Source of the DNA: Escherichia phage Halfdan
Sequence record: NC_072811.1
Length of the DNA: 42,858 nt
Reading direction: 5' to 3' (one strand)
The translations under genes and the position numbers were made by a program. The notes beneath the pieces are model-generated. The model was not told where the DNA came from. It did no database searches and saw only the letters and a list, made by a program, of their open reading frames with translations. Positions 71 through 10,964 of this stretch are shown piece after piece (position 1 is the first letter of the stretch; every line of letters starts with the position of its first letter).

Positions 71-721
71 TTACGGCGTCCCGCTTGGGGTAATGGTGCC
101 CTTGGCGACCACGTTTCCGGCCCCGTCAACTTTGAACACCGCTACGCCGTCGGAATTCTGAACCAGAACCGACGACCCCGAATCGGCCGTATGAGTTCGC
201 AAAATGATTCGATGGTCAATCCCCGGCGAACCAATCAATATACGAAGAAGGCCGGTCGGGTCAACAACCGACGTATACCCGCCTTGAATCAGCGCAACCG
301 GGGCCATAACGAAAGTGCGTTCGTCGGTAATCATGGCGTTAAGAATTGCCGTATCGTCGGGTTCCAACGAAATTTGGCAAATCGGAAACACGCCGAACGG
401 AATTGCCGGGGGCGTAGGGGTTGCCGCTTCCGTACCGACAACGCGATGATACGTGCGGTCGTTCAGGTCGAGATAAACCCGGTCGATTCGCGGATTCGCG
501 GAAGGCGCACCAATTCCGGTTACGTTGGTTCCCATGATAACGGAACCGTCCATAAGCAAACCGGCTTCAATCGCAATACCCATACCGACGGTCGCCATTT
601 CACGCGGGGCGAACTGGCGGCCGGTTTCCGCCAATACCGCGATACTGTTGTCGATAGCCGATTTGTAGTTAGCGGCCGTTTGGGTCGTAAAGTCCGGTTG
701 TACGAATTCAGATACAGACAT
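71..721 (-). CDS. putative tail fibre / distal tail structural protein
   Basis: 216-aa ORF; ATG at 719-721 overlaps stop of upstream gene (TAATG coupling); last gene of the tail module; no diagnostic motif recognised. Confidence 0.4.
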   Translation of the reverse strand: MSVSEFVQPDFTTQTAANYKSAIDNSIAVLAETGRQFAPREMATVGMGIAIEAGLLMDGSVIMGTNVTGIGAPSANPRIDRVYLDLNDRTYHRVVGTEAATPTPPAIPFGVFPICQISLEPDDTAILNAMITDERTFVMAPVALIQGGYTSVVDPTGLLRILIGSPGIDHRIILRTHTADSGSSVLVQNSDGVAVFKVDGAGNVVAKGTITPSGTP

Positions 722-3186
722 TATAGTTTCTCCAACGTCGAATTAAGGCCCAAGAATTGTACGCCTTGGGGGTCGGTAACGGTAGCCCGGAAACCAAGTT
801 TAATATTCGCATCGCCGGTTAACACGAATTGCCCTTGTTGGTATTCGGTGTTATCGAAATGCGCCACTTGCGCCGACGCATTCAAAGTCGGCAATACGCC
901 CGGAATGTTTGGCGAACGAAGCCAGCCAACCGAACCGGATACACGAAGGGTTGCGGGCGGTGCCTGATACGTCGCATCTTTAGACCAGTATTCGCACTGG
1001 CCGAAAGGTGCCGGAACCATCATATCGAACACTTCCCAACCAAGCGACGCCGCCAGTTGTTGCGAATCGACAACCGCTTTGTACGGCGTAACCCAAACCC
1101 CGTTAATCAAATCGCCTTCGTACTTGCTAAAACCGGTTTGCTTGACGATAGTAGCGGGCGGGCGACCGGTTGCCGCAACACTTGCCGGAACGCCGACCAT
1201 ACCCGCGTCGGATACGAACGCCGCGAAGTAAACGCCGTCTTGAATTTCGCGTTGAACGCGCAACGTCGTTTGCGGAAGCGGAATCGTCGCAACGATAACA
1301 CCTTGTTCGTAATCTTCAATCGACTTTGCCCACACAATGACCGTCGAAGCCGCCAGCGAACCCGGAAGCGGGGCCGACCAAGCAAGGTCGCCGTACAGGC
1401 TATCGACAACGTTAAAGGTCAGCGATTGGACGGCTTCCGGGTATTCAGACCCAAGGCCGACAACGACAACCGTATTCGAAGGCGTAGTCGTAGAACGCTT
1501 TTCGTAACTGTTCACGGTTCGGATATAGCCGATATACGTGTCGCCAGCGCCAAGCGGCGGCGTTGTATACGTTATCGTCGTGCGACCCGACATAAAGATA
1601 TAGTCGGAATCGACAGGCGTAAACGGATACTTGCCGTAAGCCAGTTCGTAACCAACGACGTAAATATCGGCGGATTGCGGCCAGTCAAAGCGAACGCGGG
1701 GTTTGTTGGTGCCCGGTTCGACAGCGGTAACGCCCGAAGTCGCGTACAGAACCGACAACGGCTTCGGTTGGGTAACATCTGGTACGATGATTTGACCGCC
1801 GCCGTCAATCGGCTTTAAGTCCATATCGTCGGAATAAATGTCGTCGCTGTATTCAACTAGCGTTAGTTCGATGCCGCCGGGGTCGGTATTGGTCGGCGGC
1901 GTCATTTTCCAATCGGTAATTTGAAACAGCTTCGAAATCCAACCAAGTTGGGGCAAGTTCAGCGGTACAACGTCCCAAACTTCGTAATTAAATACCGTCC
2001 ATTTGCACGGAAGGGTAATCGTCTTTTCCAGCCGCGCACGGCGTAAGAAAATGGTTGCCAGTCGTTGCGCCGTAATCGGCGAAGTCGTGAAGTTCAACAC
2101 AATATCTTTGAATTGCTGAATACCGCCGTCTTGTGCGATATATTCAGCGCCGGATACTGGCGGGAAGTCGTTAAATACCCAACCGTTCGTAGAATCAAGG
2201 AAAGTACCCTTGACGCTGTTAAACGATTGGTCGGTCGGCGTGCGCGGTTGAAGCGACGGATTATCCCGCAAGTCTTCGGCCGTAATCTGGCGCGAAACGG
2301 CGGTACGGGCCGCACCGACAAACAGGCGGTAGACGCCTTCCGTCCATACGACAGTACCGGCACAAGCCGAAAGCATTTGCGAAATTGTGTCGCCGTTCTT
2401 GGTCGAAAGTTCGACAACACCGTCGATTGTATATCGGCCGTCGCAAAGACTGGCGGCCATGCTTGCCGGGATTTGGTCGGAAATGTCGGCGGCGGCTTTA
2501 ACGGTTTCCCAATCCATTTCGGCGGAAGTTGCGCCCAAGCCGTCTACCGAAGTCATAAAGTCGGCGGTGCAAAGCGCACCGTTGTTCGTCCACTTGGTCA
2601 AGCCGTCGCGGGGGTCGTATACCGGTTTACCCTTAACGTCGAATTGCACGTTAGGGCGGCCGTTCTTCCAAGCGGTTTTGTCGTATTTCAGCTTAACGAC
2701 CGCATACGCGCAACCGGTCAAAATGCAATCGGCGGTGTATTCGCTGAAAGTCGCGTGCAACTGCGGGTCAACGGCGGTTTGCGAACCGTCGTAATACCAC
2801 CATTCATACCAGCCCGCCGCAACATCCGGCCCGGCTTCGCCGTCGAAATAGATTTGCGTAACTTCTTGGATTCGGTGCGCCGCAATTACAACGACCATCC
2901 AAAGATATTCGTAACCGTCGCCGGATACGTTGGCGTAACTAACGACGCCAGAAATCCGCGCTTTCCCATAGACCATACGGCGCGGGGCGTCGGCCTGAAA
3001 GGTAAGCGATAACGGGTTCGTCTGGTACGTCGTACCAACCGGGTTCGGTGACGATTGAACCCCGGACATATTGCGCGACATTGCCAGCGTTAAGCCGACG
3101 GCGACAATCGTACCGATAACAAGCGCGGTCGTCGTACCGACCACGGCCGCAACGGCGATTGCAATTACGGGAAGTACGGCGGGCAT
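721..3186 (-). CDS. large tail-tip / host-specificity-like protein
   Basis: about 821 aa from ATG 3184-3186 (track ORF extends to a TTG at 3201); hydrophobic N-terminus; assignment by size and synteny only. Confidence 0.45.
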   Translation of the reverse strand: MPAVLPVIAIAVAAVVGTTTALVIGTIVAVGLTLAMSRNMSGVQSSPNPVGTTYQTNPLSLTFQADAPRRMVYGKARISGVVSYANVSGDGYEYLWMVVVIAAHRIQEVTQIYFDGEAGPDVAAGWYEWWYYDGSQTAVDPQLHATFSEYTADCILTGCAYAVVKLKYDKTAWKNGRPNVQFDVKGKPVYDPRDGLTKWTNNGALCTADFMTSVDGLGATSAEMDWETVKAAADISDQIPASMAASLCDGRYTIDGVVELSTKNGDTISQMLSACAGTVVWTEGVYRLFVGAARTAVSRQITAEDLRDNPSLQPRTPTDQSFNSVKGTFLDSTNGWVFNDFPPVSGAEYIAQDGGIQQFKDIVLNFTTSPITAQRLATIFLRRARLEKTITLPCKWTVFNYEVWDVVPLNLPQLGWISKLFQITDWKMTPPTNTDPGGIELTLVEYSDDIYSDDMDLKPIDGGGQIIVPDVTQPKPLSVLYATSGVTAVEPGTNKPRVRFDWPQSADIYVVGYELAYGKYPFTPVDSDYIFMSGRTTITYTTPPLGAGDTYIGYIRTVNSYEKRSTTTPSNTVVVVGLGSEYPEAVQSLTFNVVDSLYGDLAWSAPLPGSLAASTVIVWAKSIEDYEQGVIVATIPLPQTTLRVQREIQDGVYFAAFVSDAGMVGVPASVAATGRPPATIVKQTGFSKYEGDLINGVWVTPYKAVVDSQQLAASLGWEVFDMMVPAPFGQCEYWSKDATYQAPPATLRVSGSVGWLRSPNIPGVLPTLNASAQVAHFDNTEYQQGQFVLTGDANIKLGFRATVTDPQGVQFLGLNSTLEKL

Positions 3187-3623
3187 TAGCGGAACCCCCA
3201 AACGTCGATAATGCGATGCGTTACCGGAACTTGCACAATTCCGACCGGATGCAAACAGGCAAACGCCTTATTGCGGTAGAACACACCCAAGCCGCAACGT
3301 TGGTCTACGCGACCTTTGCCGACGGATGCGCGGGGCCATTGAATGCAAACAACGTCGCCGTCTTTGGCTTCGGATAGGTCAATGATTCGACCGCCGACAG
3401 GCTTAACCAACGTTTCGAATACTTCCCGAACGACGACCGTTCCGAAGGTATCGTTAAGCATCATTGCGCAAGTTGATTCGTCCTTATAAGTCCGAATATC
3501 GCGCATAACGTCAACACCGGTTGCGATTTCGATAGCGCCAGCGGCAAAGGTGCAACAATCGAACTTGCCCCATTCGAAACGCTGTTCGGCGCATTCCGCC
3601 ATGTATTCGTGAATGTCTTTCAT
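3186..3623 (-). CDS. tail-associated protein, possible NlpC/P60-like cysteine peptidase
   Basis: 145 aa from ATG 3621-3623; FDCCTFAAG cysteine motif with downstream His; TAATG stop-start coupling on both sides. Confidence 0.3.
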   Translation of the reverse strand: MKDIHEYMAECAEQRFEWGKFDCCTFAAGAIEIATGVDVMRDIRTYKDESTCAMMLNDTFGTVVVREVFETLVKPVGGRIIDLSEAKDGDVVCIQWPRASVGKGRVDQRCGLGVFYRNKAFACLHPVGIVQVPVTHRIIDVWGFR

Positions 3624-4159
3624 TATGAACCCCAACGTACTTTTAATGTGGGCATCGAAGCGATGAACTTAAACCCTTTATCGTTCGGGTATTTCGCTTG
3701 CTGGTCTTCGTTAGTATACCGGGAATTAACCGAACGTGCCCAATTAATCAAGCGTGACGACGCGGAAGCCGCAACCGAAACAACTTGGCCTAAGTCAACG
3801 GTTAACGAATCAATTGTTCCGTTGAACCACGTAATCAAACCGGTTACAAGCTGGTTGTTTTTATCGACAAGCGCAATCGAAACCTTAATCGGTTTATTAC
3901 GCGTGTTTTCGTTAACAACGTCACCGGTCATAGTTGACGGAATATTAGTTAGGGTCAACTTTAACGCCGTAGCGGTTACACCGTTGGTCGTGGTGTAATC
4001 GCCGATTCGCCCAAGCGAACCGACGCCGTAATAAAGTTTTCCGCCGACAGTAATATTCCGGTCGGAAGTGTTCGCCAAGAACGGGCCACTTTCGAAACTG
4101 ATTTCTACAAAGTAAACCGGACGAACGACCTTTTCGTCGAACTGCGGGAAGTTACGCAT
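3623..4159 (-). CDS. tail protein, paralogue of the C-terminal domain of the 915-aa tail protein
   Basis: 178 aa; shares RPV(F/Y)FV and RYT(N/D)E.QQ...P.D(K/R)GFKFIA...K(V/L)(R/K)WG blocks with residues ~725-915 of ORF 4152..6899. Confidence 0.5.
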   Translation of the reverse strand: MRNFPQFDEKVVRPVYFVEISFESGPFLANTSDRNITVGGKLYYGVGSLGRIGDYTTTNGVTATALKLTLTNIPSTMTGDVVNENTRNKPIKVSIALVDKNNQLVTGLITWFNGTIDSLTVDLGQVVSVAASASSRLINWARSVNSRYTNEDQQAKYPNDKGFKFIASMPTLKVRWGS

Positions 4160-6899
4160 TTTGGTCGCCCCATTTTAGTTTGGTCGATTGCAAATCGGCG
4201 ATGAACTTAAATCCACGGTCGCCTGGGTGCAATAGTTGTTGGTATTCGTCGGTATAGCGGGCGGTTGAAGCCTTGTGCCAATCCGAAAGCGAAGACCGAA
4301 CGTTTAACTTAATCGTCGCGGTGTTACCGGTAAATTGAACGTTATTGTCGAGAATAGCGCCCGACCCGATAAGTCGCGGATTGCTGATTAGGATATTCGA
4401 AGGGTCAACCAAACCCAAGAACATTTTAACGCCCTTCGCCCGGATATGTTCGGTAACGTAATCGACCATATTAAGCGGAATGCCCGCAAGGCCCATTGAC
4501 CAACCAGCGTCGGAAGCGGCCAAGCCTTCCGTTACCGCTTCAATCTTGCCGAACTGGCCGGTCGCGAACCACGTTTTACCGTCATAGTCGATATTCTTGT
4601 CGGAACTGTTCATAAACGAATCGTCGCCAACTTGAACAAAGAACACCGGCCGAATAATACGGTCTTCAATTTCCGCGCCAAGTTGTCGGCGTGGCGGCAC
4701 GTATGGTTGAATCGCCGGGTCGGTTCCGTACAACGTATCGTCGTATGTAATACCGTCGCGGATAACTTGCGGGTATGCCCACACATAGATATTAGGGATT
4801 TCGTTCAAAATGGCTTCACGCGTCGCGATATTCACGTTAGGCCAAACCCAAGTTTCGCGGGCCGTGTTCACGAAGCCGACGAAGTAATGCACGACGGCCA
4901 ACGGATATTGCAAACGCACCGTCGCCGCTTCAAGGGTCAACGGCAACAAGTCAAGGTCGCCGTTAATAATCCAATCGTAATCCTCAATCTGTACGAAATC
5001 GTAATTCGGATAAATCCATTCCGATTCGGGGAAATTGATAATCGGCAACATTTCCGAAGCCGGGTTCATAATCTGCGGTGTAAAGAACAGCAGCGTACCC
5101 AACGAATCAGGATAAGCGGCCTTTACCGCATCCCGAATATAGTTGGTCGATTGGCCCAACTTCACGCCCAACCATTCCAAGTACGGGCGTTGGTCGTCGG
5201 TAATCGGCTGTTTATAGTTGGTGTAATACGGCGTCGGTACAGCGTGCCCGGTTTCGGTCGTATAAAGCCCCTTCGTGTATTCGTCGTAAATACACGGCGC
5301 ACCGTTCGTATAAGAACCGTCCCACCACCACGGTTCGCCAATCTGGAACATTAGCGTACTAATGCCGGATTCTTGAAGAAGTTTCATACCGTGTTTAATC
5401 GTCCGGGCTAGGTAATCCATCGCCGGAATAAACGTCGGAATCAGGAACGACGAAGGCGGCGACCAGCCCGAAAGCGCCGGGCTTCCGTAAGCGTCGCGTT
5501 GCTTCCATTCGTCCGGGCAATACGTGTTAAGGATTTCGTAAGACGTAGACCAAATAAACGTATAGCCGTAGGCTTGCATTTGGGTGAAGAAGTTACGGCA
5601 CCAAACTTCCGTAGGATAGTTCAGCGGTTCGGCCGCATCCTTTACCACTTGGTTAACGAATGTCGTACTTCCCCCGGTCGAATACGCCTTGAAATAGTGC
5701 GACATACCCATATACAGGTTGAAATGCCCCCGGTATCCAAGGTTGTACGTGTTATCAACTTGTCGCCACGGCGTAATATTGTATGTATCGTCGAAACCCG
5801 AAGTCATTTGCATATTATGCACGGCTTGCGGATAGAAACGACGACCGATAATGCGTCGCGCACCAGTTACCGAAATGTTCATCATTTCGAAGTTAAGCGA
5901 TTCGTTACCGATAGCCGTGTCGAGTTGAAGCGTAACGGCGTTCGCCGGGCCGCCGATAATCGCAACGTCTTTAAGCGGCCCGTTTTCGGCTTTTACATAT
6001 AGCGAAGTTCCCCGCATGTACCAGTTATTAACCTGAATCAAGAACGTTTGCAGGTTTTGAGTATAGATAGCGATAGGGTCGCCGCCGCCTTTACCGCCGT
6101 TCTTCTTACCGGTATTGACCGTTTTAACGTACTTGTCCGGTTGGACAATCGTAAATTGCAGAATGTCACCCTTCTTTAACCGCAAGTTAGGGTTAACGTT
6201 CATTACTTCCCAATAATCAAGCGTACCCGTACCCTTTACGCCGACGTATCGGGAACCGTAGTAACCAATTTCACCAATGCTTCGGATACGCGCATTCGGC
6301 CCAAGGCCATACGACCCCGGAGTAATGGCGAAGAAGAAGTTAATAATATAACGCGGGTCGATAACGTCGCCGTCGAAGTTGAACCCGGTTTTCATGTTGT
6401 CGAAATCAAGAATATAGATTTCGTAACCATCGGGAACGGTCGGCGTACCTTCGGGGAAGATATCAGAAATCGCGTAAATCAGGCCCGGCCCCGGCCCGGT
6501 AATTTCGATCGCACCGGGATTCGGAACCAGCGACTCGCCTTGTATCTTATACGGAAACATTCGGTAAACCTGATTACCGGAGTTCGACAGAACAGTTACC
6601 GTAAATTTGTACGGATAAAGCGGGTTCGCAACGAACCCAACTTTAACGCCGGAATAATCGCGGTCTTCGACGTACTGCAACAGGGGGTGCCCCATATCGT
6701 CGTGCGAAGTCCAAAGCAAGCCGACCAAATCGCGGTTAGAACGAAACTCACAATTTACGGTCAGCTTGTCGGGCGTATCGGCGATAATGGTTGCAATCGC
6801 CGACAACGGAAAGTCAAGGTGAAAATACCGGCCGTCGAAACGCGTAAGCGTCGAATTGGCGGCCGGTAGGGTTTCGCAGTATGCGCTATCGAATGCCAT
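4152..6899 (-). CDS. large tail protein (baseplate-hub-like, tail-tip complex)
   Basis: 915 aa; ATG 6897-6899 abuts stop of upstream gene; downstream of tape measure and distal tail genes; function inferred from synteny. Confidence 0.5.
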   Translation of the reverse strand: MAFDSAYCETLPAANSTLTRFDGRYFHLDFPLSAIATIIADTPDKLTVNCEFRSNRDLVGLLWTSHDDMGHPLLQYVEDRDYSGVKVGFVANPLYPYKFTVTVLSNSGNQVYRMFPYKIQGESLVPNPGAIEITGPGPGLIYAISDIFPEGTPTVPDGYEIYILDFDNMKTGFNFDGDVIDPRYIINFFFAITPGSYGLGPNARIRSIGEIGYYGSRYVGVKGTGTLDYWEVMNVNPNLRLKKGDILQFTIVQPDKYVKTVNTGKKNGGKGGGDPIAIYTQNLQTFLIQVNNWYMRGTSLYVKAENGPLKDVAIIGGPANAVTLQLDTAIGNESLNFEMMNISVTGARRIIGRRFYPQAVHNMQMTSGFDDTYNITPWRQVDNTYNLGYRGHFNLYMGMSHYFKAYSTGGSTTFVNQVVKDAAEPLNYPTEVWCRNFFTQMQAYGYTFIWSTSYEILNTYCPDEWKQRDAYGSPALSGWSPPSSFLIPTFIPAMDYLARTIKHGMKLLQESGISTLMFQIGEPWWWDGSYTNGAPCIYDEYTKGLYTTETGHAVPTPYYTNYKQPITDDQRPYLEWLGVKLGQSTNYIRDAVKAAYPDSLGTLLFFTPQIMNPASEMLPIINFPESEWIYPNYDFVQIEDYDWIINGDLDLLPLTLEAATVRLQYPLAVVHYFVGFVNTARETWVWPNVNIATREAILNEIPNIYVWAYPQVIRDGITYDDTLYGTDPAIQPYVPPRRQLGAEIEDRIIRPVFFVQVGDDSFMNSSDKNIDYDGKTWFATGQFGKIEAVTEGLAASDAGWSMGLAGIPLNMVDYVTEHIRAKGVKMFLGLVDPSNILISNPRLIGSGAILDNNVQFTGNTATIKLNVRSSLSDWHKASTARYTDEYQQLLHPGDRGFKFIADLQSTKLKWGDQNA

Positions 6900-7514
6900 T
6901 TAGCTTTGTCCGTACAATGCTTCGGTGAATTCAAGCGAAGCGGAATGCAACATTCCGTCGATACTCACTTCGCCGCCCCCGGTAAGTTGACACGATACAA
7001 CCGGCGCAATCGACGAAATCGCGGTTCCGTTTACTGGCGGGTTGCGCAATGGCGGAAGAATCGGAATGTTCGCGTTCCCGCTGGCATCCGACGAAACAGC
7101 CGCCGTAACAATATGCATTCGATACATGCCGTCGGAACACAAGTAAGAAATTTGGTCGCCGACTTCAAGAATCGCAATGCTTGGCGTCCAACCAGCGGAA
7201 GCCAGAACGGCCCCCGCTTGGTTTGCGCCGTTAACCGTCGGCGTGCCCGGTTCGGTACTGCGACGCGGGATATACGACAGGTCGTAAATGTGGGCAACTT
7301 CCGCCCCGCCCCGCAACATCGCTTTAATTGCTTTCAGTTGTCGGCCATACTTGGCGGATAGGCTGTCGTATCCGAACGTAAGTTTCCAGCGTGCGCCCGG
7401 AAGTTCGACAACCTGAATGCCGCCAGTGAAAGGCGACGCCGCGATGCCCACATTATTAAGAATGTCGGCTTTTGCCGTATCCGGCGCGAATAGCGTAGTC
7501 CGTAAATCAATCAT
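6900..7514 (-). CDS. putative distal tail protein
   Basis: 204 aa; ATG 7512-7514 directly follows tape measure stop; position typical of a Dit-like protein. Confidence 0.4.
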   Translation of the reverse strand: MIDLRTTLFAPDTAKADILNNVGIAASPFTGGIQVVELPGARWKLTFGYDSLSAKYGRQLKAIKAMLRGGAEVAHIYDLSYIPRRSTEPGTPTVNGANQAGAVLASAGWTPSIAILEVGDQISYLCSDGMYRMHIVTAAVSSDASGNANIPILPPLRNPPVNGTAISSIAPVVSCQLTGGGEVSIDGMLHSASLEFTEALYGQS

Positions 7515-10500
7515 TTAGTTTGCCGCCTGTTTAATGACTTTCGACCAAGTACCGCCCATGCGGATACTATCCATAATGTCGGCTTGCGTCTTCTGCGAAA
7601 TTGCGGTCGCCGCTTTTTCCAGCGAATCGGCGGAACTGTCGCCGGAACCGCCCTGTACGGTAATATTGTTGTCGATATCGAATGCGACCATAACAACACC
7701 GCCGCCACCATTACCGGCATTATCGCTATTTTGGTTCACTGCGGCAACCGAACCGCCGTTGTTCATCGCTTCAAGCGTTGCGCGGTGTTTGCGCGTAGCC
7801 GCCGCATTAACGACGAATTCTTGACCGTGAACCACGCCCGCAACTTCGGACGTACCGACGTCGCCGGTATAGCCACCAGTTTTAAAGCCCTTGGCCGCGA
7901 AGCCCATTACCATACCGAACAACACGGCAAGCGCCGCGATACCGGCCACGGCCGCACCGCCGAACGATGCCGCCGAAGTCACGGCCGCCGCTGGTGCCCA
8001 AGCTGCCGTAGTCGTGGCCGCCGCTGCGGTCGATTGTGCGGTCGTCGCAGTGATAGCGGTTTGCGCTAACGCTTGGTTGACGACGTATTGAATACCGACC
8101 TTGATAAGTGCGCCGATAAGTTCCGAAAGAATTTGCTTCGAAACTTGCGACAACGTATCTTGCAGGTTTTCACCGTACACGATAGCGCGGCCGATGCTGT
8201 TTGCGAATCCGTCAACGAACCCGGTAAAGAAGTTACCCCAAGCGCCCGACAGACCTTGCAACACGCCTTGATAGTTCGAAACAAGTTGGCCCATACCGGC
8301 GACAATTGCGTCGTTAAATCCGGCCGTACCCATTTGCATTTTAAGATTTGCGGCATCGACGTTCAGTTGTTGCATTTTAATGCCGTACTGTTCCGCCGAA
8401 ATTGCGCCGTTCGCCAACGCCTGATTATACGCCTGTTGTTGCGCCGTCAAGTCGGCTTGTGCGCCCTTGGTTTCGCTGTAAATCTTGTTCAGAACGTCCG
8501 ATTTCTTTTGCGCTTCGTCAAGTGCAACGGTCGTCTTACGGATGCTTTCGGCCATAGCTTCGCTAAACGGCAAGCCCGCTTGCAATGCGGCGTTTCGCGC
8601 CTGAATAACGTTTCGTTCCGCTTCCATCGCCGGGCCGACTTTCGACAGTACGTCGAATTGTTCTTGTGCCGCCTTGTTGAACGAATACAGCGGGTCGGTT
8701 GCGCTGGCGTATGCGTCTTTCGCCTTGGCGACCAATGCGTTATATTTTTCAAGGCTAATTGCGCCAGTGTCATAAAGCGCCTTGGCGACAGCCATTGCGG
8801 CGTTATATTCGCGCAAAGGTGCGGTAACTTCTTTAAGAGCCTTGTTGTAATCTTTCTGTTCTTGCGTCAACTTGGCTTTCTTCGTTTTGCCGTCGTCGCC
8901 CGAAAGCTGGTTCGTACCGGCACCGCGAAGGTTCGACTTAGCCGCTTCGGCTTCCGCTGCGCGGCGGGCTTCCGAAATCTTGCGGGCACCTTGCATAATG
9001 GCGTCGGTCATACCGCCAACGTAATCGGTTTGGAAGCCCGACACGGCGGCTTGTGCGACAGCCGAACCGGCGTCTTTCGCTTCCTGTTCGATTTGCATAC
9101 GCGGCAATTCGATTTTCGCTTTGTCAAGTGCGCCGTTCAACTTGGCGACCAGTTCCGGGGCAACACCTTCGGCAAGCGACGCAATGCCGCGAATGCCGAT
9201 TTGCCAGCTATTCACCAGCGTTTCAACAGCCGTTGCGCCAGCGTTCACGACAAGCGCAAACAGCCCTTTCATAAGGGCCGGGAAGTTGTCCCAAACGGTT
9301 TTAACGACGTTGTACGCGGAAACCCAAGCGCCGATATAACCGTTAACAGTCGCCTTAACTAGCGACAGAATGGTATCGCCAAGCGAACGGAAGTTTTCAC
9401 CCCAACCGTTAGTTTTTTCGTTAATCCAATCAATCGCCTTACCCCAAAGCGATTGGATTTCGGCACCAACGGCGCTAAACCCGTCGCCGACAATCGAAAG
9501 AACCGACTTCGCAACGTCTTGCAGGTTAACCAGACCGTCGGAAGTAACCGAAATCTTGTCGCCGAATACGGTAAGGGCTGCGATAGCGGTTGTAATGGCA
9601 ATCGCGATAAGGCCAATCGGGTTGGCCGCTAGGGCCGCCGTGAAGCCAATTACGGCGGTCGTCGCTGCGCCAAGGGCGGATAGCAGGGCTGGCCCGAACG
9701 CGACCAGCAGGGCCGCGCCTACGGCCACAAGCGCCACGGTCAACAGGTCGAGATTGTTACCAAGCCAAAGAATCGCCTTCGCCAGTGCCGACGATACGCC
9801 GGTCGCTTTATCCAGCTTACCGACGAATTGGCCGACTTGGTTGTTAAGTACGGTCATCGCTTGCCCGATTGTGGGCGTCGTTTTCGCGAAGGTATCGTCG
9901 ATTTGCTGTTGAATAAGCTGGAACGCTTTAAACAGAACTTCCGACGTAATCTTGCCTTCTGTACCGAGTTTTTTAACTTGGTCAACCGGTTTGTTAAGCG
10001 CCTTGGCTACGGCGTCCAATACGACGGGCATGTTTTCCGACACGGAACGGAATTCGTCGCCTTGCAACTTACCGGAGTTGAACGCCTGCGAAAGCTGCAA
10101 CAGGGCCGACGATGCTTCCGACGAAGTGGCACCGGATACGACCAACGCTTTGTTAATGGTTTCGGTCATTCGCAAAGTATCTTCTTGCGATTTACCCATT
10201 AACTTCAACGACCGGTCAAAGCGCGTAAATGCGGTCGCGGTTTCGTCAACCCCGGCACGCGTCTTGTTCGCAAGTTCGTACAGGCGGTCGGTAAGTTCGT
10301 TAACTTGCGCTTGCGACGACGAAACGTTTTGCAATTTGTTTTGCAAAGCGGTATAACTGTCGGCGTACTTCAACAGGGCACCGGTTGCGGCGGTAATCGC
10401 GGCAATCGAAAGCGCACGCTTTGCGAAGTCCATAAACGAATTAGTCGTTTTCTGGTTCTGTTCTTCCAACTTCTTTTGCGCCTGTTGCAGACGAATAGAA

Positions 10501-10964
10501 GCCAGTTCCGCACGCGACGCGGCGGCGGCACTGTTCGATTGTGCGGTCGAAGTCTTAGCCGTTTCGGTCGCTAACTTCGCTTCGGCGGTCGCGGTGTTAG
10601 CGGTTGCGGTAGCCAAGCGTTGTTGCGCCGTCGCCGTATTGGTCGAAGCGGTAGCCAAACGGGCTTGCGCGTTCGCGGCGTTTGCGGCCGACTGTTCAAC
10701 GCGGTTTTGCAAGATAGCGGCTTGCGCGGCCGTGGTATTGGCCGCCTGTTGCGCTTGTGCAAGTTTGGTCGAAGCCGACGCCGCTTGGTTCATTGCGGCC
10801 GAAAGCGATTGCAACCCCTTACCGTCAAGCATGGCAAGTTGTTGTTTCAGCGTTTCAACTGCGGTATGCGCGTTGCGGGCCGACGCGGCGATTCGGTCAA
10901 TCTTCGCCGGGATAGACGCCGCTACGCCGTCCGTAATTTCAATAACGATTTGTTCGTCGGCCAT
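7515..10964 (-). CDS. tail tape measure protein
   Basis: 1149 aa; Ala/Gln-rich N-terminal region with tandem peptide repeats, central hydrophobic segments, location after chaperone genes. Confidence 0.85.
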   Translation of the reverse strand: MADEQIVIEITDGVAASIPAKIDRIAASARNAHTAVETLKQQLAMLDGKGLQSLSAAMNQAASASTKLAQAQQAANTTAAQAAILQNRVEQSAANAANAQARLATASTNTATAQQRLATATANTATAEAKLATETAKTSTAQSNSAAAASRAELASIRLQQAQKKLEEQNQKTTNSFMDFAKRALSIAAITAATGALLKYADSYTALQNKLQNVSSSQAQVNELTDRLYELANKTRAGVDETATAFTRFDRSLKLMGKSQEDTLRMTETINKALVVSGATSSEASSALLQLSQAFNSGKLQGDEFRSVSENMPVVLDAVAKALNKPVDQVKKLGTEGKITSEVLFKAFQLIQQQIDDTFAKTTPTIGQAMTVLNNQVGQFVGKLDKATGVSSALAKAILWLGNNLDLLTVALVAVGAALLVAFGPALLSALGAATTAVIGFTAALAANPIGLIAIAITTAIAALTVFGDKISVTSDGLVNLQDVAKSVLSIVGDGFSAVGAEIQSLWGKAIDWINEKTNGWGENFRSLGDTILSLVKATVNGYIGAWVSAYNVVKTVWDNFPALMKGLFALVVNAGATAVETLVNSWQIGIRGIASLAEGVAPELVAKLNGALDKAKIELPRMQIEQEAKDAGSAVAQAAVSGFQTDYVGGMTDAIMQGARKISEARRAAEAEAAKSNLRGAGTNQLSGDDGKTKKAKLTQEQKDYNKALKEVTAPLREYNAAMAVAKALYDTGAISLEKYNALVAKAKDAYASATDPLYSFNKAAQEQFDVLSKVGPAMEAERNVIQARNAALQAGLPFSEAMAESIRKTTVALDEAQKKSDVLNKIYSETKGAQADLTAQQQAYNQALANGAISAEQYGIKMQQLNVDAANLKMQMGTAGFNDAIVAGMGQLVSNYQGVLQGLSGAWGNFFTGFVDGFANSIGRAIVYGENLQDTLSQVSKQILSELIGALIKVGIQYVVNQALAQTAITATTAQSTAAAATTTAAWAPAAAVTSAASFGGAAVAGIAALAVLFGMVMGFAAKGFKTGGYTGDVGTSEVAGVVHGQEFVVNAAATRKHRATLEAMNNGGSVAAVNQNSDNAGNGGGGVVMVAFDIDNNITVQGGSGDSSADSLEKAATAISQKTQADIMDSIRMGGTWSKVIKQAAN
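10570..10700 (-). repeat. in-frame tandem repeats within tape measure gene
   Basis: about 42-nt units encoding repeated (Q/E)A(R/K)LAT(A/E)(S/T).NTATA-type peptides. Confidence 0.5.

What the first reader, a model, noticed from the sequence alone, without database searches (positions are those of the whole stretch)
3623..4725. Intragenomic duplication: ORF 3623..4159 is a paralogue of the C-terminal ~190 aa of the adjacent 915-aa tail protein
The two share the blocks RPV(F/Y)FV, (V/I)K(V/M)(S/F)(I/L)(A/G)LVD and RYT(N/D)E.QQ...P.D(K/R)GFKFIA...K(V/L)(R/K)WG in the same order. A domain present once fused and once free in adjacent genes points to duplication or module shuffling in the tail-tip complex, which may bear on receptor-binding architecture.
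Basis: seen in the sequence. Interest (0 to 1): 0.5.

Follow-up and report, generated by a model that had tools for sequence, protein, structure and literature searches.

The report
Duplicated hub anchor mounts tail enzyme
In phage Halfdan the small protein that joins the tail tube to the tail tip is present twice, once free and once as the C-terminal anchor of a large sugar-hydrolase-like tail protein borrowed from N4-type phages, which shows how phages bolt new host-recognition modules onto an old scaffold.

Summary
The 178-aa ORF (3623-4159, minus strand) and residues 743-911 of the adjacent 915-aa protein are 32% identical over 173 aa (BLASTP E=1e-29; Smith-Waterman z=42 against shuffles). 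The window is the whole genome of Escherichia phage Halfdan (Lokivirus).

The first 725 residues of the 915-aa protein are the N4 gp65/gp64 "non-contractile sheath" module. It contains a glycoside-hydrolase-like TIM barrel and is joined to the anchor by a flexible linker.

Most of the 233 phage genomes that carry this family have one free copy. Twelve, all Lokivirus-like, carry the fused-plus-free pair, as do about 30 metagenomic relatives. Both copies are under purifying selection (dN/dS 0.17 and 0.06).

Other phages fuse the same N4-like module to a distal-tail-protein domain, again next to a free copy or as a tandem pair.

Where the second anchor docks is unresolved. I rate this a new variant of a known kind, of moderate interest.

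The parts
3623..4159 (-). Free 178-aa baseplate hub protein 1 (BH1P / gpL-N-like attachment domain only; no cysteines)
4155..4682 (-). C-terminal domain (residues 740-915) of the 915-aa protein: a second, more divergent copy of the BH1P attachment domain, the proposed anchor
   Evidence: It is 32% identical to the free copy at E=1e-29. It matches PHROG 2048 at E=4e-25. It has the same order of secondary-structure elements in the full-length AF2 model. It retains family-invariant residues, including the RYTxExQQ...PxDxGFxF...WG motif. dN/dS is 0.166.
4683..4724 (-). Flexible linker (residues 726-739) between the TIM barrel and the anchor domain
   Evidence: This is a segment of the AF2 model with pLDDT below 50, lying between two confidently folded parts.
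4752..5819 (-). Glycoside-hydrolase-like TIM barrel (residues 361-716) of the 915-aa protein
5820..6899 (-). N-terminal beta-rich region (residues 1-360) of the 915-aa protein, homologous to the N-terminus of the N4 gp65 sheath protein
   Evidence: It matches Pfam NCTSP_N at E=5e-20. Residues 15-408 match N4 gp65 (9lc0_I) residues 53-420 at E=2e-41. It also matches PHROG 15324 'tail sheath and receptor binding protein'.
6900..7514 (-). Distal tail protein (Dit), 204 aa
   Evidence: It matches PHROG 1302 'distal tail protein' at E=3e-38. The Loki orthologue was linked to T5 pb9. It lies directly downstream of the tape measure gene.
3186..3623 (-). DUF6950 protein (145 aa), in the position of the gpK/g14 cell-wall peptidase
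   Evidence: It matches Pfam DUF6950 at E=4e-20. The syntenic genes in L009 and L010 hit NlpC/P60 weakly. The Loki gp19 homologue matched peptidoglycan hydrolases by HHsearch.
721..3186 (-). Baseplate hub protein 2 / central fibre (J-like, 821 aa)
   Evidence: It matches PHROG 31 'central tail fiber J' and Pfam Phage-tail_3. Residues 164-521 match T5 pb3 residues 414-777 at E=3e-8. Its N-terminal ~500 aa are colinear with the J proteins of the single-copy phage JenK1 and of locus L006.
7515..10964 (-). Tape measure protein, which marks the start of the tail-tip operon
   Evidence: It is an 1149-aa ORF and is annotated as tape measure protein in the 99%-identical record.

Best explanation
The 178-aa protein is the phage's canonical baseplate hub protein 1 (BH1P). 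It is a tube-fold 'attachment domain' that, in solved relatives, sits in three copies under the hexameric distal tail protein (Dit), alternating with a domain of the large hub/central-fibre protein. That arrangement converts six-fold into three-fold symmetry. The 915-aa protein is an accessory tail-tip protein built from two parts. The first is an N4 gp65/gp64-type module: a beta-rich N-domain plus a glycoside-hydrolase-like TIM barrel. The second is a duplicated, faster-evolving copy of the BH1P attachment domain, joined by a flexible linker. I propose that this C-terminal copy is an anchor. By mimicking BH1P's contacts it plugs the enzyme-like module into the tail tip at a site that is not equivalent to the one held by the free copy. 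The most likely stoichiometry is three copies of each protein. The modules would then project sideways as the short terminal 'spikes' seen on the related phage Loki, where they bind or cut a surface glycan during adsorption.

Shown: the homology of the two copies, the fold and family of the domain, the identity of the N-terminal module, conservation of the pair, and selection on both copies. Inferred: virion incorporation, stoichiometry, docking site and enzymatic activity.
For: Paralogy: BLASTP E=1e-29 and z=42 against shuffles.

Solved analogue: Sf11 has a 156-aa BH1P at 3 copies, an 828-aa BH2P at 3 copies and Dit at 6 copies, close to Halfdan's 178, 821 and 204 aa. The RcGTA paper describes the attachment domain and the megatron central domain binding odd and even Dit subunits.

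The free copy is the ancestral one. Single-copy phages have the order TMP-Dit-BH1P-DUF6950-J. The free copy scores 166 bits against PHROG 2048, the fused copy 90 bits. dN/dS is 0.062 for the free copy and 0.166 for the fused one. The J-like hub protein is colinear with those of single-copy phages, so the standard hub still needs a BH1P.

N-terminal or loop-inserted cargo on this domain is tolerated elsewhere: LamG-BH1P and NCTSP fused to a full hub protein.

The pair is conserved in a 44%-identical relative and an 89%-identical relative, and pairing by contig across about 10 metagenomic genomes agrees. The genes overlap by 8 nt, which is consistent with coupled translation.

A parallel design exists with a different anchor: NCTSP-Dit followed by a free Dit (28% identity, E=4e-19), and NCTSP-Dit-Dit in one chain.

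Loki virions show short spikes at the tail terminus.
Against: No structure, proteomics or multimer model places either protein in the virion. The canonical hub ring has only three BH1P positions, and no extra docking site for a BH1P-like domain is known in any solved tail tip. In locus L010 and in the LamG fusions, a cargo-bearing hub protein works as the only copy. Steric need therefore does not explain why Halfdan keeps a free copy. The fused copy keeps the family's most conserved C-terminal motif, which could mean that it occupies the same kind of site as the free copy rather than a different one. Hydrolase activity is untested, and N4's homologous module has no demonstrated enzymatic role in the papers read.
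Confidence: 0.65

Rival explanations
1. Hetero-ring model. The fused and free copies alternate, three of each, in one additional six-membered ring of tube-fold domains stacked between the Dit hexamer and the hub. The duplication would then exist to halve the number of bulky modules from six to three.
Against: In the solved relatives read, the BH1P attachment domain (3 copies) joins the tail together with the large hub protein rather than as a ring of its own. Halfdan's J-like protein has lost no hub domain, so a BH1P would still be needed in the hub ring. No tandem BH1P-BH1P chain was found among the 150 best family representatives.
Confidence: 0.15
2. Same-site model. Both copies compete for the three canonical BH1P positions, giving mixed or alternative tips, some with and some without the enzyme module. 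This would be a form of built-in heterogeneity or bet-hedging.
For: The fused copy retains the family-invariant residues. Cargo-bearing hub proteins do occupy the canonical position as sole copies in other phages.
Against: Both genes are strictly co-conserved in all roughly 30 genomes of the clade. Each forms its own well-supported clade (bootstrap 98 and 91), and the two evolve at different rates. This pattern fits two distinct roles better than interchangeable ones.
Confidence: 0.12
3. The C-terminal copy is an evolutionary remnant of a fusion event and no longer has an anchoring role. The 915-aa protein would attach some other way, or would not be a virion protein at all.
For: The C-terminal domain evolves about 2.5 times faster than the free copy at non-synonymous sites and scores lower against family profiles. 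The last ~40 residues of the model have low confidence.
Against: A dN/dS of 0.17 is clear purifying selection. The domain is retained at full length in all 32 homologues, down to 44% overall identity. The same module is always found fused to some tail-tip scaffold domain in other lineages: hub, Dit or phage stabilisation protein.
Confidence: 0.05

Closest known systems
Baseplate hub protein 1 of Chi/Sf11-type siphophages (Sf11 gp16, PDB 9occ; Chi gp27, PDB 8vjh)
   Different: There is no detectable sequence similarity (8-16% identity in the structural alignment). Sf11 has one copy and hangs its tailspikes on an adaptor domain of Dit, not on a duplicated BH1P.
Lambda gpL / T1 gp36 / RcGTA g13 / R4C and JBD30 hub proteins (Pfam PF05100, PF09931 + PF09356)
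   Same: The N-terminal attachment domain and the gene position between Dit and the NlpC/P60-like gene are shared.
   Different: Those proteins carry a C-terminal Fe-S or oligosaccharide-binding part with four cysteines. Both Halfdan copies have no cysteine and end right after the attachment domain. The 178-aa protein is below the Pfam threshold for PF09931 (16.3 against 26 bits).
T5 pb3 baseplate hub protein (PDB 7zhj)
   Same: It is the only solved protein with detectable sequence homology. pb3 residues 14-176 align to the BH1P family, and pb3 residues 414-777 align to the Halfdan J-like protein residues 164-521. The Halfdan hub is therefore a split version of pb3.
   Different: pb3 is one chain, whereas Halfdan splits it into two genes and adds a third gene carrying a second copy of the first domain.
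Coliphage N4 non-contractile sheath gp65:gp64 (PDB 9lc0, 9yf4)
   Same: Residues 15-408 are homologous to gp65 residues 53-420, and residues 423-719 to gp64 residues 110-410 (E=1e-101). The Pfam families are the same.
   Different: N4 is a podophage with six heterodimers wrapped around the tube, and gp65 continues for ~960 more residues down to the tail plug. Halfdan has the module in one chain, lacks the long C-terminal part of gp65, and ends instead in a hub attachment domain.
Adaptor-domain mounting of receptor-binding modules on siphophage tips (e.g. the Sf11 Dit adaptor for P22-like tailspikes)
   Same: The principle is the same: a conserved scaffold fold is used to hang a horizontally acquired host-recognition or enzyme module on the tail tip.
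   Different: Here the adaptor is a paralogue of a core ring subunit, covalently fused to the cargo and encoded next to the unmodified copy.

Membership tests
Baseplate hub protein 1 / hub attachment domain (gpL-N, RcGTA g13 residues 1-142, T5 pb3 HDI; Pfam PF09931) | Tube-like beta-barrel attachment-domain fold superimposable on solved hub proteins | tested here: met
   [not shown]
Baseplate hub protein 1 / hub attachment domain (gpL-N, RcGTA g13 residues 1-142, T5 pb3 HDI; Pfam PF09931) | Sequence match to the curated family model above its threshold | tested here: not met
   The 178-aa protein scores 16.3 bits (E=0.011) against PF09931, below the cut-off of 26. Of 80 family members, 16 match at E<=1, the best at 2.5e-6. 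PF05100 was not hit. Homology is supported instead by the family profile against T5 pb3, at E=2.6e-7.
Baseplate hub protein 1 / hub attachment domain (gpL-N, RcGTA g13 residues 1-142, T5 pb3 HDI; Pfam PF09931) | Gene position: after TMP and Dit, before the NlpC/P60-like gene and the large hub/central-fibre gene | tested here: met
   The order is met for the free copy in Halfdan and in JenK1, Vibrio K449, CRP-406, L006, L007 and L011.
Baseplate hub protein 1 / hub attachment domain (gpL-N, RcGTA g13 residues 1-142, T5 pb3 HDI; Pfam PF09931) | Three copies per virion, bound under alternate Dit subunits next to the large hub protein | not testable with these tools
   This is known for RcGTA, T1 and Sf11 from the papers read. 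There are no virion data for Halfdan.
Lambda gpL-type tail tip protein (Fe-S cluster protein) | C-terminal domain with four conserved cysteines coordinating a [4Fe-4S] cluster | tested here: not met
   Neither the 178-aa protein nor residues 735-915 of the 915-aa protein contains a cysteine. Both end immediately after the attachment domain.
N4-type non-contractile tail sheath protein (Pfam NCTSP_N + TIM-barrel_NCTSP) | Both Pfam domains above threshold, and sequence homology to N4 gp65/gp64 | tested here: met
   NCTSP_N scores 72 bits, although only profile positions 2-72 of 191 are matched. TIM-barrel_NCTSP scores 327 bits. PDB 9lc0_M matches at E=1e-101 and 9lc0_I at E=2e-41.
N4-type non-contractile tail sheath protein (Pfam NCTSP_N + TIM-barrel_NCTSP) | Long C-terminal extension (part of gp65's ten domains D1-D10) that runs along the tube to the tail plug and forms a six-fold sheath | tested here: not met
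   The homology to gp65 stops at gp65 residue ~420 of 1382. The Halfdan protein ends in a hub attachment domain instead.
Glycoside hydrolase, (beta/alpha)8 barrel | TIM-barrel fold similar to characterised glycosidases | tested here: met
   [not shown]
Glycoside hydrolase, (beta/alpha)8 barrel | Catalytic acid/base and nucleophile carboxylates in the active-site positions; measurable activity | tested here: inconclusive
   E522 (motif QIGEPWWWDG) and E639 (motif QIEDYDW) are invariant in 38 homologues and lie at the C-terminal ends of predicted barrel strands. No superposition on a catalytic site and no assay was possible.

The most novel reading that the evidence does not exclude
Duplicating a ring-forming tail-tip subunit into a 'cargo-bearing' and a 'plain' paralogue may be a recurrent way to mount three copies of a large N4-type glycan-processing module on a siphophage tip. 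The paralogues can be encoded side by side, as in Halfdan (hub-1 type) and L009 (Dit type), or joined in tandem, as in P0209 (Dit-Dit). This reading implies hetero-oligomeric (3+3) rings of Dit or hub-type subunits. No such ring appears in the tail-tip structures I read about here.
Probability: 0.3. Interest if true: 0.65.

Novelty: new variant of a known kind. Interest (0 to 1): 0.45.

Why it matters
Tail-tip scaffolds determine which receptor-binding or enzymatic modules a phage can carry, so they matter for host-range engineering. This locus gives a natural, conserved example in which the hub attachment domain itself has been copied and reused as a covalent adaptor for a module shared with N4-type podophages. 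A parallel case uses the distal tail protein in the same way. If the docking geometry were solved, it would show whether core tail-tip rings can be heteromeric. It would also give a portable 'plug' for mounting enzymes on siphophage tips. In addition, the result corrects database annotations: the 915-aa homologues are labelled 'hypothetical' or 'capsid and scaffold protein'.

Tried and rejected
Several searches gave nothing useful.
- The 178-aa protein alone found nothing significant in Pfam or in the PDB sequence search. An 80-sequence profile was needed.
- The word-indexed homologue search returned only close orthologues. The exhaustive HMMER search was needed to see the family, which has 4368 representative clusters.

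The origin of the second copy could not be settled.
- In the NJ tree the fused and free Lokivirus clades are sisters.
- Bootstrap support for that grouping is only 15%. Support for grouping the two fused-copy clades together is 1%.
- In-lineage duplication, independent duplications and acquisition from elsewhere therefore cannot be separated at 25-30% identity.

Some candidate parallels did not hold.
- The 165-aa gene after the fused protein P0147 (locus L012) is not a free copy.
- I looked for tandem BH1P-BH1P chains among the top family hits and found none. Instead, some LamG or short insertions sit inside a loop of the domain.
- I considered that the J-like protein might have lost a hub domain to make room for the extra copy. 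I rejected this because it is colinear with the J proteins of single-copy phages.

Literature searches for a prior description of the duplication found none in the held library. The Loki genome paper recognised gp18 as gpL-like and gp17 as hydrolase-like, but did not link them.

A linker-fused AlphaFold run to model the heterodimer was considered and dropped. The tool returns no coordinates or contact maps, so the result could not have been read.
Full report
**Identity of the window.** The window is 42,858 bp. It matches Escherichia phage Halfdan_Juelich_variant and phage Shy (genus Lokivirus) at 99% identity. The published Halfdan genome, MH362766, is exactly 42,858 bp, so the window is the whole phage genome.

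The finding lies in the tail-tip operon on the minus strand. The gene order is:
- tape measure protein (7515-10964)
- distal tail protein Dit (6900-7514, PHROG 1302)
- the 915-aa protein (4152-6899)
- the 178-aa protein (3623-4159)
- a DUF6950 protein (3186-3623)
- a J-like hub/central-fibre protein (721-3186)
- a 216-aa structural protein (71-721)

The genes abut or overlap. The stop of the 915-aa gene and the start of the 178-aa gene overlap by 8 nt, and the next junction reads TAATG.

**Observation check.** BLASTP aligns residues 6-177 of the small protein with residues 743-911 of the large one, at 32% identity, 55% positives and E=1e-29. The Smith-Waterman score is 259, against 37.7 +/- 5.2 for 500 shuffles (z=42). 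PHROG 2048 independently matches both copies over the same profile positions.

**What the shared domain is.** The single sequence finds nothing in Pfam or the PDB. An exhaustive HMMER search finds 4368 representative clusters, almost all of them free-standing proteins of about 185 aa.

In RcGTA this attachment domain, together with the central domain of the large 'megatron' protein, binds the odd and even subunits of the Dit hexamer. That converts six-fold into three-fold symmetry. T1 and lambda are built the same way.

Sf11 has a 156-aa hub protein 1 at 3 copies, an 828-aa hub protein 2 at 3 copies and a Dit at 6 copies. This is the closest solved analogue of Halfdan's 178-aa and 821-aa proteins. 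T5 pb3 residues 414-777 align with the Halfdan J-like protein, so the Halfdan hub is a split pb3. Neither copy has a cysteine, so the Fe-S domain of gpL and g13 is absent.

**What the rest of the 915-aa protein is.** Pfam finds NCTSP_N and TIM-barrel_NCTSP. Residues 15-408 match the N-terminus of the N4 sheath protein gp65. Residues 423-719 match N4 gp64 at E=1e-101. In N4 these two proteins form the heterodimeric non-contractile sheath, which is the receptor-binding protein.

**Which copy is ancestral.** In JenK1, Vibrio phage K449 and Roseobacter phage CRP-406 the order is TMP-Dit-BH1P-DUF6950-J, with a single free copy. Of the 233 phage records that carry the family, only 12 have two matching places. 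These are the Lokivirus-type records, such as Shy and Acinetobacter phage W9, which are listed with two places.

The free Halfdan copy keeps the ancestral position. It scores much higher against the family profile (166 against 90 bits) and is more constrained. Against an 89%-identical relative, dN/dS is 0.062 for the free copy and 0.166 for the fused one. The values for the rest of the 915-aa protein and for Dit are 0.073 and 0.122.

Both copies are therefore under purifying selection. The pair is kept in a 44%-identical relative (L007), and matching contig lengths pair the two genes in about ten metagenomic genomes. The J-like protein is colinear with those of single-copy phages. The standard hub is thus intact, and the second attachment domain is supernumerary.

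**Origin of the second copy.** The fused-copy clade and the free-copy clade are each monophyletic (bootstrap 98 and 91). They are sisters in the NJ tree, but that node has only 15% support. The more distant 'group 2' fused copies do not group with the group 1 fused copies (1% support). Duplication clearly predates the radiation of the clade. Whether it happened once, several times, or involved exchange between neighbouring copies is not resolved.

**Module shuffling in other lineages.** The N4-like module occurs fused to several different tail-tip scaffolds:
- a complete GTA-type hub protein that is the only hub copy (P0213/L010)
- a DUF2460 Dit followed by a free Dit paralogue (P0214/L009, 28% identity, E=4e-19)
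- two tandem Dit domains in one chain, with no free Dit gene (P0209/L008)
- a phage stabilisation protein, and DUF285 repeats

Conversely, the BH1P-like domain carries other cargo, such as LamG lectin-like domains. These are attached at the N-terminus or inserted in a loop, and the protein is then the sole copy.

The attachment domain therefore tolerates cargo, and the N4-like module is always tied to a scaffold domain. The tandem Dit-Dit chain implies 1:1 stoichiometry, and hence three modules per tip, in that lineage.

**Mechanism.** I conclude that the 178-aa protein is the canonical hub protein 1. The 915-aa protein is an accessory, probably glycan-binding or glycan-cleaving, tail-tip protein. 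It is anchored by a duplicated hub attachment domain and tethered through a flexible linker.

Loki virions show short spikes at the tail terminus, which fits this picture. The exact docking site is not known. It could be a second non-equivalent site (my favoured reading), an extra 3+3 ring, or competition for the canonical site. These tools cannot decide among them.

**Novelty.** The Loki genome paper already called gp18 gpL-like and gp17 hydrolase-like, but it did not connect them. I found no description of the duplication in the held literature. The components are known kinds. What is new is the arrangement: a core hub subunit copied and reused as a covalent adaptor next to its plain paralogue, with a parallel case built on Dit. 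I rate it a new variant of a known kind, of moderate interest.

Noticed in passing
window 4752-5819 (915-aa protein residues 361-716); P0215: The TIM barrel is one chain in Halfdan but appears to be split between two proteins in N4-type phages. The gp65-like protein P0215 matches only profile positions 2-57 of the barrel model. N4 gp64 residues 110-410 align to the rest of the barrel (Halfdan residues 423-719). The known gp64:gp65 heterodimer may therefore be a barrel completed across two chains.
   Followed up: partly
L008 6001-9420 (P0209) and L009 635-3540 (P0214 plus the next gene): The same N4-like module is fused to a DUF2460 distal-tail-protein domain. In one case two tandem Dit domains sit in one chain (30.5% identical, E=1e-29) with no free Dit gene. 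In the other a free Dit paralogue follows the fused one (28% identical, E=4e-19). This suggests Dit rings built from two kinds of subunit.
   Followed up: partly
window 3060-3186 (N-terminus of the J-like protein): The J-like hub protein starts with a ~40-residue hydrophobic stretch (MPAVLPVIAIAVAAVVGTTTALVIGTIVAVGLTLAM). This is reminiscent of the 'iris/penetration' helix at the N-terminus of the RcGTA megatron protein, which plugs the channel and is proposed to line a membrane pore.
   Followed up: no
P0093 (389 aa, metagenomic family member): This hub attachment-domain protein carries Hint / intein-splicing domain matches at its C-terminus (residues ~248-388). That is an unexpected partner for a tail-tip protein.
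   Followed up: no
P0167, P0138, P0130 (family members): Extra sequence interrupts the attachment domain about 40-50 residues in. In P0167 it is a ~390-aa insertion that includes a LamG lectin-like domain, and in the other two it is ~60-70 aa. This marks a permissive loop in the domain.
   Followed up: partly
records PP954860 (L001), PP146379 (L005), MW151244, KF811200: Database annotations of the 915-aa homologues are uninformative or wrong ('hypothetical protein', 'putative capsid and scaffold protein'). The 99%-identical Halfdan_Juelich_variant record lists Pseudomonas taiwanensis as host, although the phage is an E. coli K-12 phage.
   Followed up: no
[not shown]
   Followed up: no
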